Assembly: GCA_027858895.1 (NCBI GenBank)
Contig: JAQIBX010000178.1
Location: 193 to 64,192 of the forward strand
Origin: Desulfuromusa sp.
GTDB lineage: Bacteria > Desulfobacterota > Desulfuromonadia > Desulfuromonadales > Geopsychrobacteraceae
Reading direction: 5' to 3'
Length of the DNA: 64,000 nucleotides
Both the position numbers and the translations under genes were made by a program. How positions within the stretch are numbered: position 1 is the stretch's first letter; each line of letters begins with the position of its first letter. Under the pieces are notes generated by a model. That model made no database searches and had not been told where the DNA came from. It saw nothing but the letters and a program-made list of their open reading frames with translations. Positions 16,219 through 20,179 of the stretch are shown one piece after another.

Positions 16219-16422
16219 ATTTTCCTCCTCTCTCTAAACTGACAAAGCGATATTTATAGCCATATAAGTAAAAATATGTCAACTAAATATCCAATAAAAA
16301 TATGCTGGTAGATATTTACAATAAGCATTATAGTTGGTGGTTGTATCTGTATAAAATTAAAATGGCCAATAAAAAGCTTTGTCGTTGTGATTAAAAAAAC
16401 TTATAAACATGTGTTAACAAGT

Positions 16423-16431
16423 TGTGGATAA
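16423..16431 (-). promoter_or_regulatory. Perfect DnaA box overlapping the dnaA start codon
   Basis: TGTGGATAA is the reverse complement of TTATCCACA, and GTG 16424 is the ORF start. Degenerate 7/9 boxes lie nearby: TTATAAACA (16401-16409) and TGTGATTAA (16386-16394). Confidence 0.6.
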
Positions 16432-17764
16432 AAAAATGAAAAAGATTTGGCTGGAAACATTAGAAATATTAAAATCTAAAATAAGTGAGCAAAATATTTC
16501 TACCTGGATAACTCCTATTCATCCGTTAAAAATAATTGGAAATCAGTTAACAGTTGAAGTTCCAAATAAATTTATAAAAGATTGGTTGAATGACAATTAT
16601 AAAAATATTATCGAAGAAACCCTTTCAGATGTAGGAACTTTAAACTACATAATAAATATAAAAGTTAATAAAAAAACAATAATTGAAAACAAAAATGAAC
16701 CTTTAAAAATAGAAACAACCAAAAAAAACATTACTGTTGAATATCGGCCAGATATAAACCCTAAGTATACATTTGATACGTTTGTATCGGGGACATCAAA
16801 CCAGTTTGCACATGCCGCCGCAATGGCTGTAGCTAACAACCCCGCAACAACCTATAATCCACTATTTATTTATGGCGGTGTAGGTTTAGGTAAAACACAT
16901 CTTATAAATGCAATAGGAAATGAAATATACAAAAATAACAATGCAACAAAAATATGCTATTATTCTTCGGAAAAATTTACAAATGAGCTCATAAATTCAC
17001 TTAGACACGCAAAAATGAATGAATTTAGAAACAAATTTAGGTCTATTGATGTTTTATTAATAGATGATATTCAATTTATTGCCGGTAAAAAGAGCACTCA
17101 AGAAGAATTTTTTCATACCTTTAATGCTTTATATGAATCACATAAACAAATAATAGTTACTTCTGATAAATTTCCAAAAGAAATACCAGATTTAGAAGAA
17201 AGATTAAGATCTAGATTTGAGTGGGGTTTAATTGCTGATATACAAGCGCCTGATACAGAAACAAAACAAGCAATACTTAGTATGAAAGCAGATCAGAATA
17301 ATATTAAATTACCAGAAGATGTTATATTTTTTCTAGCTAATGCAGTTTCAAATAACGTTCGAGAATTAGAGGGTTATCTTATTAGAATAGGGGCTTATTC
17401 TAGTCTTACATCAACACCAATTAATATAGAAATGGCCAAAAAAGTTCTTAAAGATATATTGGTTGAAAATAGTAGAGAAATAACTATAGATAAAATTCAA
17501 AAAAAAATAGCAGATCATTATCAAATAAAAACAATAGAGCTTAAATCATCAAAACGTTTAAAAAACATTGTTTTTCCTAGACAAGTAGCTATGTATATTT
17601 GCCGTAAATTAACTAATTTATCATACCCAGAAATAGGTAATAAATTTGGTGGAAAAGATCATTCAACAATTATACATGCCGTAAAAAAAATAGAAAGAAC
17701 AATGAAAGAAGATTTACAAATAAAAACAACTATAGATAAAATCATTGAAAACTTGAGTTTATAG
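16424..17764 (+). CDS. dnaA: Chromosomal replication initiator DnaA
   Basis: 446 aa with Walker A GGVGLGKTHL, Walker B LLIDDIQF, and the DNA-binding signature KDHSTIIHAVKKIE. The start is GTG 16424 or ATG 16436. The gene is extremely AT-rich. Confidence 0.95.
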   Translation: MDKKMKKIWLETLEILKSKISEQNISTWITPIHPLKIIGNQLTVEVPNKFIKDWLNDNYKNIIEETLSDVGTLNYIINIKVNKKTIIENKNEPLKIETTKKNITVEYRPDINPKYTFDTFVSGTSNQFAHAAAMAVANNPATTYNPLFIYGGVGLGKTHLINAIGNEIYKNNNATKICYYSSEKFTNELINSLRHAKMNEFRNKFRSIDVLLIDDIQFIAGKKSTQEEFFHTFNALYESHKQIIVTSDKFPKEIPDLEERLRSRFEWGLIADIQAPDTETKQAILSMKADQNNIKLPEDVIFFLANAVSNNVRELEGYLIRIGAYSSLTSTPINIEMAKKVLKDILVENSREITIDKIQKKIADHYQIKTIELKSSKRLKNIVFPRQVAMYICRKLTNLSYPEIGNKFGGKDHSTIIHAVKKIERTMKEDLQIKTTIDKIIENLSL

Positions 17765-17786
17765 TTGTTGATAAATAATATTAATC

Positions 17787-17905
17787 ATTAACAAATAAAA
17801 TTATTAACAAAAAACTAAAAATATAAACGTTAAATTAACAGGTATAAAATTATAAAAATTATATGTTTTTCAATGATTTAGATAACATATCAACCAATTA
17901 ACAGG
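17787..17905. repeat. Four ATTAACA-core repeats in the dnaA-dnaN spacer
   Basis: ATTAACA occurs at 17787, 17803 (within TTATTAACA), 17834 and 17897. The 10-mer aattaacagg occurs twice (17833-17842 and 17896-17905). Confidence 0.5.
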
Positions 17906-17973
17906 CACTACTAATACTACTGATTTTATAATAAATAAATATAATAGAAATAGAGAATGTTGATGGAGGTTCT

Positions 17974-19089
17974 ATGCAATTTTTGATTAGTAGAGATGTT
18001 TTTTTGGAAGGTTTGAATAAAGTTCAAGGTATTGTAGAAAAAAGACATACCATCCCAATCTTAGCTAATGTTTTAATTGAGGCTGCTAATAACGAAATTA
18101 CGATAACGGCAACGGATCTAGAAGTGGGTCTAAAATCAAAATATAAGGCTAAAGTTATCGATGAAGGAAAAATAACAGTATCAGCAAAAAAAATGTATGA
18201 AATAATTAAGGAACTTCCTGATCAGGAAATTAAATTTAATTCTAAAAATAATTTTTGGGTTGAAATAAAGTGCCATAAATCACTTTTTAATTTAGTTGGT
18301 TTGTCACCTGATGAATTTCCAAAATTTCCAGATATTGTATTAGAAAAAAATAGTATAGATAAAAATATTTTAAATGAAATGATAGAAAAAACTTTATTTT
18401 CTGTATCAAGTGATGAAACTAAGTTCAATTTAACTGGTATATATATAAAGGCAAATAAAATAGATAACAGTTATAAATTAATATTTGTTTCTACCGATGG
18501 ACATAGATTATCTATGATTCAAAGAAATTTAGAAAATGATTTAGATGATAGATATATGGAAGGTTTTATTTTACCTAAGAAAGGTATTATAGAATTAAAA
18601 AAATTATTAGAGACATTGGATGGAAATATTAATATAGGAATATCGGATAATAATTTTTCTGTAAGTAATAAAAAAACAACATTAATTATGAGAATGGTTG
18701 ATGGTGATTTTCCTGATTATAAAAGAGTTATTCCGGACACAGGAAAAAATGCAGCAGTTATAAATAAAAATTTATTTTTACATGCTTTAAAAAGAATATC
18801 TGTATTATCTAGTGAAAAATCTAAAGGAGTAAAAACAAGTTTAAAAAAAGACACACTGATTTTAAGTTCTTCGAATCCTGATTTAGGGGATGCAAAAGAA
18901 GAAATAGATATAATATATAATGGAGACGATATTTCCATAGGTTTTAATGCTAAATATATAATTGAAATATTACAGAGCATAAAAAATGAGAATATAATTT
19001 TTAATTTGAAAGATAATATTTCCCCAGGAAGAATAAATCCGGAAAATGACGAAGATCATATTTCAGTTATTATGCCTATGCGCTTATAA
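17974..19089 (+). CDS. dnaN: DNA polymerase III beta sliding clamp
   Basis: 371 aa with N-terminus MQFLISRDVFLEGLNKVQGIVEKRHTIPILANVLIEA and C-terminal end VIMPMRL. AT-rich. Confidence 0.95.
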   Translation: MQFLISRDVFLEGLNKVQGIVEKRHTIPILANVLIEAANNEITITATDLEVGLKSKYKAKVIDEGKITVSAKKMYEIIKELPDQEIKFNSKNNFWVEIKCHKSLFNLVGLSPDEFPKFPDIVLEKNSIDKNILNEMIEKTLFSVSSDETKFNLTGIYIKANKIDNSYKLIFVSTDGHRLSMIQRNLENDLDDRYMEGFILPKKGIIELKKLLETLDGNINIGISDNNFSVSNKKTTLIMRMVDGDFPDYKRVIPDTGKNAAVINKNLFLHALKRISVLSSEKSKGVKTSLKKDTLILSSSNPDLGDAKEEIDIIYNGDDISIGFNAKYIIEILQSIKNENIIFNLKDNISPGRINPENDEDHISVIMPMRL

Positions 19090-19097
19090 TTTTTTAA

Positions 19098-20171
19098 ATG
19101 TATATAAAAAATATTAAAATAAAAAATTTTAGAAACATAAATGAATGTAATATTAATCCAGGAGAAAAAATAAATTTCATTTTTGGTGAAAATGCTCAAG
19201 GAAAAACTAATTTAATAGAAACAATATATTATTCTTCTTTTTTTAAAAGTTTTAGAACTAATAAAAATATTAATCTTATTAATATTGAAAAAGAAAACTT
19301 ATTTATAGATATAAATATAACAAATAATAGAGTAAATAATAATTTAAAAATATCACTTGACAATAATAAAAATAAAAAAATTATTATAAATAATAAAAAT
19401 TCAAGTAATGAAAAATTTTACAATATTATAAATTCAATTGTTTATTACCCTGATGAAATAATTTATTTAAAAAATTATCCTGCATATAGAAGAAATTTAA
19501 TAGATAGATCTATTTTTTATATTAATAATGATTATATAAATTTATTTAGAAAATATATAAAATGTTTAAAGCAACGAAATATTTTTTTAAAATCGCCATA
19601 TAAAGAACATGATATATGGAAAGACAAACTTATAGAATATTCTTATTCAATAATAGTAGAAAGAATAAACTATTTAAAAAGAATAAATGAATATTTTGAT
19701 ATTTTATATAAAAAAAATAATGAATATGAAAAGTATTCTATAGAATATTGTAAATATGACACAGAAAAATTAAAAGATGATTTATTTCAAAAATTTGAAA
19801 GATATAAAACAAAAGAAATTAAATATGGATATACTCTTGTCGGGCCACATCTAGACGATTTTATATTTTTAATTAATAATAATAATATAGGTAAATATTC
19901 ATCAGAAGGACAAAAAAGATCTTTACTTCTTAATTATAAACAAGCCCAACTTCAGGATTATAAAGATAATTATGGTTATTATCCTATTCTTTTGTTTGAT
20001 GATATGGGTAGTGAGCTTGATTCATCTAGAAAACATAATATATTTAATAAAATATTAGATAATTCTGGACAGGTGTTTATAACTACTATGGATATTCCTC
20101 CTATTGATAAAAGTAATACTAAAATATTTGAAGTAAAAAACGGTGAATTTACAGAATTTTTATTTAATTAG
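19098..20171 (+). CDS. recF: DNA replication and repair protein RecF
   Basis: 357 aa with Walker [13 protein letters not shown], signature [11 protein letters not shown] and Walker [13 protein letters not shown]. This is the most AT-rich gene in the window. Confidence 0.9.
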
Positions 20172-20179
20172 GGCTAACT

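What the first reader, a model, noticed from the sequence alone, without database searches (positions are those of the whole stretch)
16219..20179. The dnaA-dnaN-recF cassette is a sharply bounded, extremely AT-rich block inside a mid-GC chromosome
Seen directly: base composition collapses between the rpmH start (16218) and the gyrB start (20180). Hand counts of G+C per 60-nt line inside the block are 17/60 (17041-17100), 13/60 (18601-18660) and 6/60 (19381-19440). In flanking genes the counts are 28/60 (16141-16200, rpmH), 26/60 (20221-20280, gyrB 5' end) and 36/60 (21301-21360, gyrB). Codon choice flips as well: Arg is AGA in the block (for example aga tta aga tct aga near 17205-17220) but CGN in gyrA and gyrB. 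The encoded proteins are Lys/Asn/Ile-rich, with RecF containing [25 protein letters not shown]. All three ORFs are full length with intact catalytic motifs, and they occupy the canonical rpmH | dnaA-dnaN-recF-gyrB position. Both edges fall in spacers, and only 8 nt separate the recF stop from the gyrB ATG. Inference: a random island would not land as an exact positional replacement of three essential genes. That leaves three options. (i) The replication-initiation module was displaced by a foreign copy through recombination in conserved flanks. (ii) The assembly or bin is chimeric, joined across conserved genes. (iii) There is an unexplained local mutational regime.
Basis: partly seen in the sequence, partly recalled or inferred. 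Interest (0 to 1): 0.85.

Follow-up and report, generated by a model that had tools for sequence, protein, structure and literature searches.

The report
Clade-wide AT-rich valley around oriC
The very AT-rich dnaA-dnaN-recF block is real, but it is neither foreign DNA nor an assembly error: a whole group of Desulfuromonadales bacteria inherits the same GC trough centred on the replication origin, so some still-unidentified local force keeps these essential genes AT-rich.

Summary
Window 16219-20179 is 23.6% GC against 48.1 +/- 2.2% elsewhere (z = -11), and every hand count reproduces. GC3 is 0.16 (dnaA), 0.15 (dnaN) and 0.07 (recF). All three proteins pass NCBIfam equivalog cut-offs.

The junctions recur in four independent assemblies at 99.96-100% identity. 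The same trough is present in the cultured isolates Desulfuromusa kysingii, Malonomonas rubra and Pelobacter seleniigenes, and in more than 25 further Desulfuromonadales loci. DnaA and DnaN trees match the GyrB tree, so the genes are native.

Synonymous sites are saturated between these species, in both block and flanks. The AT-richness is therefore a maintained local equilibrium, not unameliorated imported DNA.

The block is not gene-bounded at silent sites. GC3 recovers gradually through gyrB and through yidC/rnpA. The 8-9 kb valley surrounds a conserved DnaA-box/DnaA-trio unwinding module in the dnaA-dnaN spacer.

The cause is unresolved. One moderately diverged species pair shows no excess synonymous divergence. 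This mildly favours a regional fixation bias (selection for AT, or loss of a GC-favouring force) over hypermutation.

I found no prior description. Interest is moderate: ordinary genes in an unusual, lineage-wide compositional regime.

The parts
13888..15486 (-). yidC, the left slope of the valley. GC3 is 0.20-0.33 in the origin-proximal (N-terminal) part and 0.35-0.62 in the distal part.
15489..16063 (-). yidD and rnpA, also on the left slope (whole-gene GC3 0.27 and 0.32).
16066..16218 (-). rpmH, a 50-codon ribosomal protein gene that stays at GC3 0.47 inside the valley. It is the exception.
16219..16435 (.). rpmH-dnaA spacer (about 27% GC). It holds a clade-conserved degenerate DnaA box TTATAAACA (16401-16409) and a perfect DnaA box TGTGGATAA (16423-16431) abutting the dnaA start. 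It also holds conserved promoter-like blocks.
16436..17764 (+). dnaA (442 aa from the ATG at 16436; the ORF finder gives GTG 16424). GC 0.27, GC3 0.16. Native Desulfuromusa orthologue.
17765..17973 (.). dnaA-dnaN spacer (18% GC), the probable unwinding part of oriC. It contains box-like sites at 17766-17774 (TTATCAACA on the - strand) and 17801-17809. The box ATATCAACC lies at 17887-17895 (TTATCAACA in relatives). After a 12-bp spacer come the trinucleotide repeats CTA CTA ATA CTA CTG at 17908-17922 (3'-GAT-type DnaA-trios on the other strand). An AT-only stretch follows at 17923-17960.
17974..19089 (+). dnaN. GC 0.25, GC3 0.15. Valley floor.
19098..20171 (+). recF. GC 0.18, GC3 0.07, FYMINK 0.56. 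The lowest point of the valley (19200-19399 is 11% GC). Two independent contigs break here.
20180..22570 (+). gyrB, the right slope. GC3 climbs from 0.17 to about 0.45 over roughly 300 codons, in all 10 clade members profiled. Control lineages are flat.

Best explanation
SHOWN. dnaA, dnaN and recF here are the organism's own, vertically inherited, functional genes. They lie on the floor of an 8-9 kb GC valley. The floor is about 4 kb, with slopes running into yidC/rnpA on the left and gyrB on the right.

The valley surrounds the replication origin. The GC-skew switch lies at 16-17 kb, and a DnaA-box/DnaA-trio module sits in the dnaA-dnaN spacer.

The valley is a shared trait of a clade of Desulfuromonadales: Desulfuromusa, Malonomonas, 'Pelobacter' seleniigenes and Geopsychrobacteraceae, some Desulfuromonas, and Trichloromonas. 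A shallow version is seen in every lineage examined.

Silent sites have turned over completely between these species, yet the valley persists. It is therefore a local compositional equilibrium held by a force that still acts. The force works at the DNA level. It affects spacers and all codon positions, ignores gene and operon borders, is strand-symmetric, and acts through transitions as much as transversions.

INFERRED (about 0.5 of my belief). The force is a regional shift in fixation bias rather than hypermutation. One version is weak selection, of order 4Nes 1-2.5 per site, for easily melted AT-rich DNA in the few kb around the origin. The other is local absence of the GC-favouring force (selection or biased gene conversion) that keeps the rest of the genome at 45-60% GC. 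In the second case the region relaxes to the AT-rich mutational equilibrium.

The proteins tolerate this by drifting to Lys/Asn/Ile-rich sequences while keeping their motifs.
For: Native and vertical descent:
- Top DnaA hits are Desulfuromusa (80-86% identity). Top GyrB hits are the same organisms and contigs (89-94%).
- NJ trees of DnaA, DnaN and GyrB all nest the clade inside Desulfuromonadales, next to normal-GC members and then Geobacter.
- Synteny mnmG-mnmE-yidC-yidD-rnpA-rpmH | dnaA-dnaN-recF-gyrB-gyrA is conserved in every locus.

Real sequence, not an artefact:
- L001 and L002 span both junctions; L003 and L004 begin inside recF and span only the recF|gyrB junction. All four assemblies are 99.96-100% identical to the window.
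- Three isolate genomes show the same architecture.

Clade-wide distribution:
- GC3 of dnaA/dnaN/recF is 0.07-0.30 against gyrA 0.39-0.79 in the GTDB and isolate loci. Metagenome contigs add about 20 more, the shallowest being L098 at 0.48/0.44/0.28 against gyrA 0.78.
- Delta GC3 (dnaA+dnaN minus gyrB/A) has median -0.26 (n=16) in the clade. It is -0.19 (n=9) in other Desulfuromonadales-level relatives and -0.07 (n=40) in distant lineages (Mann-Whitney p = 2e-8).

Equilibrium:
- Four-fold sites between the window and D. kysingii, Malonomonas or P. seleniigenes differ at about 80-100% of the fully randomised expectation. This holds in block and flanks alike.

Regional and graded:
- The mean GC3 profile of 10 clade loci runs gyrB 0.28 to 0.51, gyrA 0.55. 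On the left, yidC runs 0.47 to 0.27. Controls are flat.
- The 1-kb GC table shows a valley from -4 to +2 kb around the dnaN start in 13 lineages.

DNA-level and symmetric:
- Spacers are 18-27% GC.
- At four-fold sites A is about equal to T, and G about equal to C.
- Two-fold sites shift as strongly as four-fold sites (odds ratios 2.2-11.8 vs 3.4-12.3).

Fixation bias rather than hypermutation, from P. seleniigenes vs a 93%-identical relative:
- K4 is 0.29/0.45/0.24 in the block against 0.18-0.51 in flanks.
- GC<->AT differences per four-fold site are 0.16/0.23/0.05 against 0.14-0.27 in flanks.
- A pure rise in GC->AT mutation predicts about 1.6-2 times the flank value.

Origin module:
- The conserved box, 12-bp spacer, five trios and AT stretch match the published BUS pattern (PMC8287927).
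Against: - The choice between fixation bias and mutation bias rests on a single moderately diverged pair. It also rests on a two-state equilibrium model and on flanks whose own K4 varies about 2.5-fold. A<->T changes per A/T site are about 1.6 times higher in the block, so some rate difference may exist.
- No known mechanism requires kilobases of low-melting coding DNA around a bacterial origin. Related Geobacter species initiate without it.
- The deepest point (recF) lies 1.5 kb to the right of the putative unwinding site, and the right edge is steeper than the left.
- Only 64 kb of this genome and 21 kb of each relative could be read. I cannot show that the origin valley is the only such region in these genomes.
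- Trees are distance-based on compositionally biased proteins. The placement of Trichloromonas differs between GyrB and DnaA/DnaN.
Confidence: 0.5

Rival explanations
1. Regional mutational bias. DNA within a few kb of the origin is unwound or single-stranded unusually often or for unusually long in this clade. Cytosine deamination (C->T, G->A) is therefore locally elevated and drives neutral sites to about 10% GC, with the effect decaying with distance.
For: The valley is graded, centred near the origin module, strand-symmetric, and independent of gene borders. Two-fold sites, which can change only by transitions, shift as much as four-fold sites. No specific motif is enriched. SNPs between the near-identical assemblies are denser in 19090-19719, with 4 of 9 in 0.6 kb, although the numbers are tiny.
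Against: In the only unsaturated pair, synonymous divergence and GC<->AT differences in the block are not elevated. recF shows 3 of 64 sites, where this model predicts about 0.3 per site. The local GC->AT:AT->GC ratio would need to be 3.4-12 times higher (four-fold-site odds ratios). That in turn needs a large fraction of time spent single-stranded. Other slow-growing lineages show only a shallow dip.
Confidence: 0.3
2. Gene-level selection. AT-rich codons (AGA, TTA, AAA and so on) or AU-rich mRNA are selected to keep DnaA, DnaN and RecF translation slow or their mRNA short-lived. The neighbouring mnmE/mnmG tRNA-modification genes might be involved.
For: Codon choice flips strongly: AGA is 81% of Arg codons in the block and 12% in gyrase. 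The three genes form one transcription unit. dnaA and dnaN are slightly GC3-poorer than gyrase genes in all 65 loci, which could reflect expression level.
Against: The trough also covers both spacers, the divergently transcribed rnpA-yidD-yidC 5' part, and the first ~300 codons of gyrB. It changes gradually inside single ORFs. T-ending codons rise as much as A-ending ones. First and second codon positions and amino-acid content shift too.
Confidence: 0.07
3. Ancient replacement. The ancestor of the clade acquired dnaA-dnaN-recF from a low-GC donor by recombination in conserved flanks, and the block has simply stayed AT-rich.
For: The floor coincides roughly with the three genes, and the right edge is steep. 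Compositional attraction could mask a foreign origin in distance trees.
Against: DnaA and DnaN branch where GyrB does. Silent sites are saturated between clade members, so inherited composition would have been erased. The trough extends into the neighbouring native genes. Depth varies continuously among lineages, and a shallow dip exists in outgroups. There is no tRNA, integrase or bracketing repeat.
Confidence: 0.04
4. Recent horizontal replacement in this genome only, or a chimeric assembly or bin joined across conserved genes.
For: None beyond the compositional contrast itself. Two contigs (L003, L004) do end inside recF.
Against: The junction sequences recur in the independent assemblies from different samples, with SNPs elsewhere: L001 and L002 span both junctions, L003 and L004 the recF|gyrB junction only. 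The same AT-rich block sits between the same genes in the isolate genomes GCA_900107645.1, GCA_900142125.1 and GCA_000711225.1. Orthologues are 80-86% identical to those of congeners. The contig breaks are what low coverage of 11-16% GC DNA would produce.
Confidence: 0.01

Closest known systems
oriC DNA-unwinding element and the DnaA-box/DnaA-trio basal unwinding system (BUS; Richardson 2016, Pelliciari 2021, PMC8287927)
   Same: AT-rich DNA at the chromosomal origin. The dnaA-dnaN spacer here carries a conserved box, a 12-bp spacer, five 3'-GAT-type trios and an AT stretch, in the published arrangement. The valley surrounds this element.
   Different: A DUE or BUS is tens of base pairs of non-coding DNA. 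Here the AT-rich zone is a 4-kb floor within 8-9 kb. It consists mostly of three essential coding genes, and its minimum lies 1.5 kb away in recF.
Horizontally acquired AT-rich genomic islands (xenogeneic DNA, often silenced by H-NS-like proteins)
   Same: A strong local drop in GC, a flipped codon usage, and Lys/Asn/Ile-rich products inside a mid-GC chromosome.
   Different: The genes are core, essential and syntenic, and they are phylogenetically concordant with their flanks. They are present in all relatives and lack mobility hallmarks. Their composition is at equilibrium rather than ameliorating.
Genome-wide AT drift of reduced endosymbiont genomes (for example Buchnera, Carsonella)
   Same: GC3 below 0.1, FYMINK-rich proteins that keep catalytic motifs, and universal AT-biased pressure reaching amino-acid composition.
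   Different: The effect is confined to a few kilobases of a free-living, 45-60% GC genome. Neighbouring genes less than 3 kb away are normal.
Regional GC3 variation attributed to recombination or GC-biased gene conversion (eukaryotic isochores; the bacterial recombination-GC3 association of Lassalle et al. 2015, cited from memory)
   Same: A stable, position-dependent equilibrium GC at silent sites with graded edges on the scale of conversion tracts. The substitution pattern fits lowered AT->GC fixation.
   Different: No recombination data exist for this locus. The scale is far smaller than isochores. No origin-centred cold spot of this kind has, to my knowledge, been described in bacteria.

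Membership tests
DnaA (NCBIfam TIGR00362, equivalog) | Whole-protein score at or above the curated cut-off (343.9 bits); AAA+ Walker A/B motifs and the C-terminal DnaA-box-binding signature. | tested here: met
   580.5 bits over residues 5-439. GGVGLGKTH, LLIDDIQF and KDHSTIIHA are readable in the translation.
DNA polymerase III beta clamp (TIGR00663, equivalog) | Score at or above 137.65 bits over the full three-domain length. | tested here: met
   332.9 bits over residues 1-371. All three Pfam beta-clamp domains are on record for the identical gene.
RecF (TIGR00611, equivalog) | Score at or above 172 bits; Walker A, signature and Walker B motifs. | tested here: met
   298.4 bits. [17 protein letters not shown] and LLFDD are present.
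Horizontally acquired genomic island | Composition atypical for the host genome. | tested here: met
   23.6% vs 48.1% GC, z = -11.
Horizontally acquired genomic island | Phylogeny of the island genes discordant with that of flanking core genes. | tested here: not met
   DnaA and DnaN trees are congruent with GyrB, and best hits are the same taxa.
Horizontally acquired genomic island | Absent or different in close relatives (patchy distribution). | tested here: not met
   The same AT-rich orthologues sit in the same position in every Desulfuromusa locus and in sister genera.
Horizontally acquired genomic island | Mobility hallmarks: adjacent tRNA, integrase or transposase, bracketing direct repeats. 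| tested here: not met
   No tRNA in 8-28 kb. Only low-complexity chance repeats are found. Neighbouring genes are all core.
Assembly or binning chimera | Junctions not reproduced in independent assemblies or in isolate genomes. | tested here: not met
   L001 and L002 span both junctions and L003 and L004 span the recF|gyrB junction, all at 99.96-100% identity. Three isolate genomes have the same architecture. Read-level coverage was not testable.
BUS-type oriC unwinding module (PMC8287927) | A DnaA box with at most 2 mismatches lying 0-16 bp from at least three NAN (consensus 3'-GAT-5') trios. | tested here: inconclusive
   Five trios lie at 17908-17922, 12 bp after the box position. In this genome the box is ATATCAACC (3 mismatches). 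In L005, L009 and L018 it is TTATCAACA (1 mismatch). Unwinding activity is not testable here.
oriC DNA-unwinding element (DUE) | A short (tens of bp) non-coding AT-rich segment next to DnaA boxes. | tested here: not met
   This applies to the 4-kb block as a whole, which is 100 times longer and about 90% coding. A DUE-sized AT stretch does exist inside it at 17923-17960.

The most novel reading that the evidence does not exclude
A few kilobases around the chromosomal origin of a whole bacterial clade evolve under a different silent-site regime from the rest of the genome. For example, the region could be an origin-proximal cold spot for GC-favouring gene conversion or selection, which would expose the true mutational equilibrium (GC3 about 0.1) of 45-60% GC genomes. 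Alternatively, there could be selection for a kilobase-scale low-melting zone needed by this clade's initiation mechanism. Either way, essential replication genes are forced to live at endosymbiont-like composition inside free-living genomes.
Probability: 0.35. Interest if true: 0.75.

Novelty: new variant of a known kind. Interest (0 to 1): 0.5.

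Why it matters
1. Practical. Strong compositional contrast is routinely read as horizontal transfer or contamination. Here it is neither.
   - The extreme AT segment breaks short-read contigs: L003 and L004 end inside recF.
   - It also causes mis-binning. A Desulfuromonadales origin contig is deposited in a 'candidate division WWE3' MAG.
   - As a result, dnaA, dnaN and recF may be lost from or misassigned in MAGs of this order.
2. Conceptual. Why bacterial genomes are more GC-rich than their mutation spectra predict is an open question. 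The debated answers are selection and biased gene conversion.
   - This system is a vertically inherited, equilibrium, kilobase-scale region at GC3 0.07-0.3 inside 45-60% GC genomes.
   - It is replicated across many species with different background GC.
   - It therefore offers a natural within-genome contrast on which polymorphism spectra, recombination maps and mutation-accumulation data could separate these forces.
3. Replication biology. If the valley is selected, it points to an unrecognised kilobase-scale sequence requirement around a BUS-type origin.

Tried and rejected
- An exact-sequence look-up of the 446-aa DnaA found nothing. Public gene calls for this sequence exist with both the GTG (446 aa, P0001) and the ATG (442 aa, P0002) start, so the miss is unexplained. 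The GyrB look-up worked instead.
- I looked for specific binding-site arrays. No 7- or 8-mer is over-represented relative to a third-order Markov model in the block of four or more species. An array of sites for a sequence-specific protein is therefore unlikely.
- I looked for loss of canonical origin architecture. DnaA-box counts in the two spacers are somewhat lower in the clade (0-2 and 1-3) than in Geobacter-type controls (1-4 and 0-3). Spacer lengths and layout are conserved, so there is no clear architectural switch.
- There is no Rfam family in 13-23 kb, no tRNA, and no bracketing repeats.
- I scanned metagenome contigs for near-identical strains to polarise SNPs. The nearest new relative has only 86% DnaN identity, so no population-level test was possible. 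The scan did add about 20 loci with the same valley.
- A purely transversion-driven cause (8-oxoG type) is rejected, because two-fold sites shift as much as four-fold sites.
- Five full-text literature searches found no description of this trough. Subscription journals are not covered.
- No second dnaA, dnaN or recF copy exists within the 64-kb window. The rest of the genome could not be searched.

Full report

Yes. GC runs at 0.43-0.58 along the 64-kb window. Around 14-21 kb it falls to 0.37 (14-16 kb), 0.32, 0.25, 0.25 and 0.18 (19-20 kb), then returns to 0.38 and 0.47 (200-nt detail).

The block 16219-20179 is 23.6% GC. 921 equally long windows elsewhere average 48.1% (sd 2.2, minimum 43.4), giving z = -11.1.

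| Gene | GC | GC3 |
|---|---|---|
| dnaA | 0.27 | 0.16 |
| dnaN | 0.25 | 0.15 |
| recF | 0.18 | 0.07 |
| gyrB | 0.44 | 0.39 |
| gyrA | 0.47 | 0.47 |
| mnmG | 0.47 | 0.45 |

AGA supplies 30 of 37 Arg codons in the block but 14 of 117 in the gyrase genes. FYMINK residues make up 0.42-0.56 of the three proteins against 0.27.

The three proteins pass the NCBIfam equivalog cut-offs with large margins, and their nucleotide-binding motifs are legible in the translations.

The cumulative GC skew has its minimum at 16-17 kb, so this is the origin region.

One part of the description does not hold: the block is not sharply bounded at silent sites.
- GC3 in 40-codon bins climbs through gyrB as 0.17, 0.33, 0.28, 0.33, 0.33, 0.40, 0.38, 0.60.
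- The origin-proximal part of yidC (0.20-0.33), yidD and rnpA are also depressed.
- Tiny rpmH stays at 0.47.

**2. Is it an artefact?**

No. The identical GyrB is encoded on contigs from two JGI metagenome assemblies and two Logan assemblies of different runs.
- Two of these contigs span rpmH-dnaA-dnaN-recF-gyrB.
- The other two end inside recF.
- All are 99.96-100% identical to the window over 12.7-22.4 kb, with 0-9 SNPs.

The contig ends inside the 11-16% GC part of recF are the expected effect of poor short-read coverage of extreme AT DNA. They are not evidence of a false join.

**3. Is it foreign?**

No.

The closest proteins to the AT-rich DnaA are Desulfuromusa DnaA: 84-86% identity in MAGs and 80% in D. 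kysingii. Malonomonas and 'Pelobacter' seleniigenes follow at 71-73%. GyrB gives the same organisms, often the same contigs, at 89-94% and 84-85%.

I fetched the syntenic loci of two Desulfuromusa MAGs and the cultured isolate D. kysingii.
- Their dnaA/dnaN/recF GC3 values are 0.14-0.16, 0.07-0.13 and 0.07-0.10.
- Their gyrA values are 0.39-0.43.

Further loci came from M. rubra DSM 5091, P. seleniigenes and another relative.
- The block is 0.24-0.28, 0.14-0.22 and 0.10-0.21.
- gyrA is 0.54-0.65.

A scan of GTDB species representatives and of metagenome contigs added about 100 loci.
- The same trough occurs in Geopsychrobacteraceae.
- It occurs in Desulfuromonas sp. BM508 (0.17/0.10/0.12 vs 0.63) and BM509.
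- It occurs in Trichloromonas (0.29/0.19/0.28 vs 0.79).
- It occurs in some 20 unnamed contigs.
- It is weak in other Desulfuromonadales, Geobacter, Binatia, Nitrospirota, Syntrophales and Acidobacteriota.

Delta GC3 (dnaA+dnaN minus gyrB/gyrA) is negative in all 65 loci that could be scored (p = 2e-8):

| GyrB identity to window | n | Median delta GC3 |
|---|---|---|
| at least 80% | 16 | -0.26 |
| 70-79% | 9 | -0.19 |
| below 70% | 40 | -0.07 |

The trait is therefore an extreme, clade-wide exaggeration of a general slight dip.

Neighbour-joining trees of DnaA, DnaN and GyrB agree. The AT-rich lineages cluster together inside Desulfuromonadales, next to normal-GC members, then Geobacter, then the outgroups.

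There is no tRNA, no bracketing repeat, and no mobility gene among the neighbours.

**4. Why it cannot be leftover imported composition.**

Between the window and D. kysingii, M. rubra or P. seleniigenes, four-fold degenerate sites in conserved codons differ at about 80-100% of the value expected for fully randomised sites. This holds in the block and in the flanks alike.

Silent sites have therefore been rewritten since these species split. Yet the block sits at GC3 about 0.1-0.25 and the flanks at 0.4-0.8 in every lineage.

The composition is thus a local equilibrium. Whatever produces it is acting now in all these lineages.

The required change in the ratio of GC->AT to AT->GC substitution is 3.4- to 12-fold, from the odds ratios at four-fold sites.

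**5. Anatomy of the valley.**

I averaged GC3 over ten clade members in genomic order.
- Left to right it runs mnmG about 0.45, mnmE 0.39, distal yidC 0.47, proximal yidC 0.27-0.32, rnpA 0.32 and rpmH 0.45.
- It continues dnaA 0.14-0.27, dnaN 0.13-0.20, recF 0.10-0.20 and gyrB 0.28, 0.34, 0.40, 0.42, 0.46, 0.51, 0.47, 0.51, and ends at gyrA 0.55.
- Sixteen control lineages are flat (0.53-0.73).
- gyrB bin 1 is below bin 8 in all ten clade loci.

In 1-kb bins the trough spans about -4 to +2 kb relative to the dnaN start in 13 lineages. Some (L106, L107) have a wider trough.

The trough ignores gene and operon borders: it changes inside yidC and inside gyrB. It includes both spacers (18-27% GC) and affects all three codon positions.

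At four-fold sites it is strand-symmetric, with A 0.41, T 0.45, G 0.08 and C 0.07. The flanks, by contrast, show the usual T>A bias.

Two-fold sites, where only transitions are silent, shift as much as four-fold sites. This excludes a purely transversional cause.

**6. The origin itself.**

An alignment of the dnaA-dnaN spacer across the clade shows a conserved module:
- a DnaA box (TTATCAACA in relatives; ATATCAACC at 17887-17895 here);
- a 12-bp spacer ending in a small GC cluster;
- five trinucleotide repeats, CTA CTA (A/T)TA CTA CT(A/G), at 17908-17922. These read 3'-GAT GAT (T/A)AT GAT GA(T/C)-5' on the other strand;
- an AT-only stretch up to the dnaN ribosome-binding site.

This is the arrangement published for the basal unwinding system: a DnaA box within 16 bp of at least three DnaA-trios with consensus 3'-GAT-5', and a typical spacer of 10-13 bp (PMC8287927). 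The window's own box has three mismatches, one more than that paper's search rule allows. I therefore score membership as inconclusive here and met in the relatives.

The rpmH-dnaA spacer holds a perfect box (16423-16431) abutting the dnaA ATG (16436), and a conserved degenerate box at 16401-16409.

The floor of the valley (16.2-20.2 kb) and its slopes (about 14-22 kb) thus bracket the probable unwinding site at 17.9 kb.

**7. What keeps it AT-rich?**

This part is inference.

*Gene-level explanations* (rare codons, tRNA-modification dependence, unstable AU-rich mRNA) do not explain several features. They fail on the spacers, on the divergent operon, on the gradients inside ORFs, and on the equal rise of A- and T-ending codons.

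*An array of specific protein-binding sites* is not supported. No k-mer is enriched across species beyond composition.

*Two DNA-level classes remain:* a regional mutation bias and a regional fixation bias.

The only pair of loci that is diverged but unsaturated is P. seleniigenes versus a Geopsychrobacteraceae chromosome, at about 93% nucleotide identity. It gives the following:

| Measure | dnaA | dnaN | recF | Flanking genes |
|---|---|---|---|---|
| K4 | 0.29 | 0.45 | 0.24 | 0.18-0.51 |
| GC<->AT differences per four-fold site | 0.16 | 0.23 | 0.05 | 0.14-0.27 |

I compared three versions of a two-state equilibrium model against these values.
- Raising only the GC->AT rate enough to explain the observed GC predicts about 1.6-2 times the flank value (0.3-0.4).
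- A change in fixation bias predicts about 0.8-0.95 times the flank value.
- Lowering only AT->GC predicts 0.2-0.5 times the flank value.

The data fall between the last two.

A<->T changes per A/T site are about 1.6 times higher in the block, so a modest rate difference cannot be excluded.

I therefore lean about 0.5 toward a fixation-bias shift. This means either weak selection for easily melted DNA around the origin, or local absence of the GC-favouring force that holds the rest of the genome above its AT-rich mutational equilibrium. I put about 0.3 on origin-linked hypermutation, such as deamination of frequently unwound DNA.

This ranking rests on one species pair and on heterogeneous flanks, and it should be treated as provisional.

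**8. Comparison with what is known.**

- The genes are ordinary members of their families.
- The valley resembles a horizontally acquired island in composition only. It fails the tests of discordant phylogeny, patchy distribution, mobility hallmarks and amelioration.
- It resembles an origin DUE in location but is about 100 times larger and mostly coding.
- It resembles endosymbiont AT drift in its effect on proteins but is confined to a few kilobases.
- It resembles recombination-linked GC3 heterogeneity in being a graded equilibrium, but no recombination data exist for it.

Five full-text searches found no description of it. The library lacks most subscription journals, so absence of a report is not proven.

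**9. Verdict.**

The headline interpretations, displacement by a foreign module or a chimeric assembly, are refuted. What remains is a lineage-wide, origin-centred compositional valley whose cause is unknown.

I rate it a new variant of a known kind: origin-associated AT-richness, or regional compositional heterogeneity. Interest is moderate.
- It is a useful caution for HGT and contamination calls and for MAG binning.
- It is a potentially valuable natural contrast for the question of what sets bacterial GC content.
- It is not a new genetic system.

Noticed in passing
window 50864-50893: Three back-to-back DnaA boxes (CGTGGATAA ccc TGTGGATAA AGTGGATAA, one of them perfect) lie in the intergenic region 50863-51263, 34 kb from dnaA. 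This is more than either origin spacer holds. It is possibly a DnaA-titration or reactivation (datA/DARS-like) site. Another perfect box lies at 28286-28294.
   Followed up: no
window 16424-16438: The mechanical ORF starts at GTG 16424, inside a perfect DnaA box. Alignment with relatives and the NCBI protein (442 aa) indicate that the real start is ATG 16436. The box therefore sits immediately upstream of the start codon, a likely autoregulatory position. Both the 446-aa and the 442-aa calls are on record (P0001, P0002), so why the exact look-up of the 446-aa product failed is unexplained.
   Followed up: partly
L003 1-755 and L004 1-352 (equivalent to window 19425 and 19828): Two independent contigs of the same population end inside recF, the 11-16% GC segment. 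Many related metagenome contigs are short fragments that consist of little more than the block (for example L095, L096, L101, L112). Extreme AT content seems to fragment assemblies at this locus.
   Followed up: partly
L017 (CALKWN010000144.1): A 7.5-kb contig deposited in a MAG labelled 'candidate division WWE3' is 80.7% nucleotide-identical over its whole length to the Trichloromonas origin locus L016. It is a Desulfuromonadales origin fragment, apparently mis-binned, plausibly because of its low GC.
   Followed up: partly
window 19090, 19172, 19178, 19719: Four of the nine SNPs that separate the window from assembly L001 fall within 0.63 kb at the dnaN end and in recF. None fall in the 12 kb to the right of recF. 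The numbers are too small to interpret (binomial p about 0.06 for the 4-kb block).
   Followed up: partly
L106 and L107 (metagenome contigs Ga0265295_1002586, Ga0307991_1000173): In these more distant relatives the trough is broader. It takes in mnmE, yidC, rnpA and even rpmH (GC3 0.11-0.25), and gyrB/gyrA reach only 0.23-0.35. Width and depth of the valley therefore vary between lineages.
   Followed up: no
L010 (ERZ21869497 contig_15): mnmG, mnmE, recF and gyrB are each split into two or three ORFs in this contig. These are probably uncorrected indel errors of a long-read assembly rather than pseudogenes.
   Followed up: no
window 17801-17809, 17833-17841, 17896-17904: The motif (A/T)TTAACA(A/G) recurs three times in the dnaA-dnaN spacer. 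The corresponding positions in relatives read TTATAAACA or ATAAACAG. These look like AT-shifted DnaA-box variants, which would suggest that box sequences have drifted with the local composition.
   Followed up: partly
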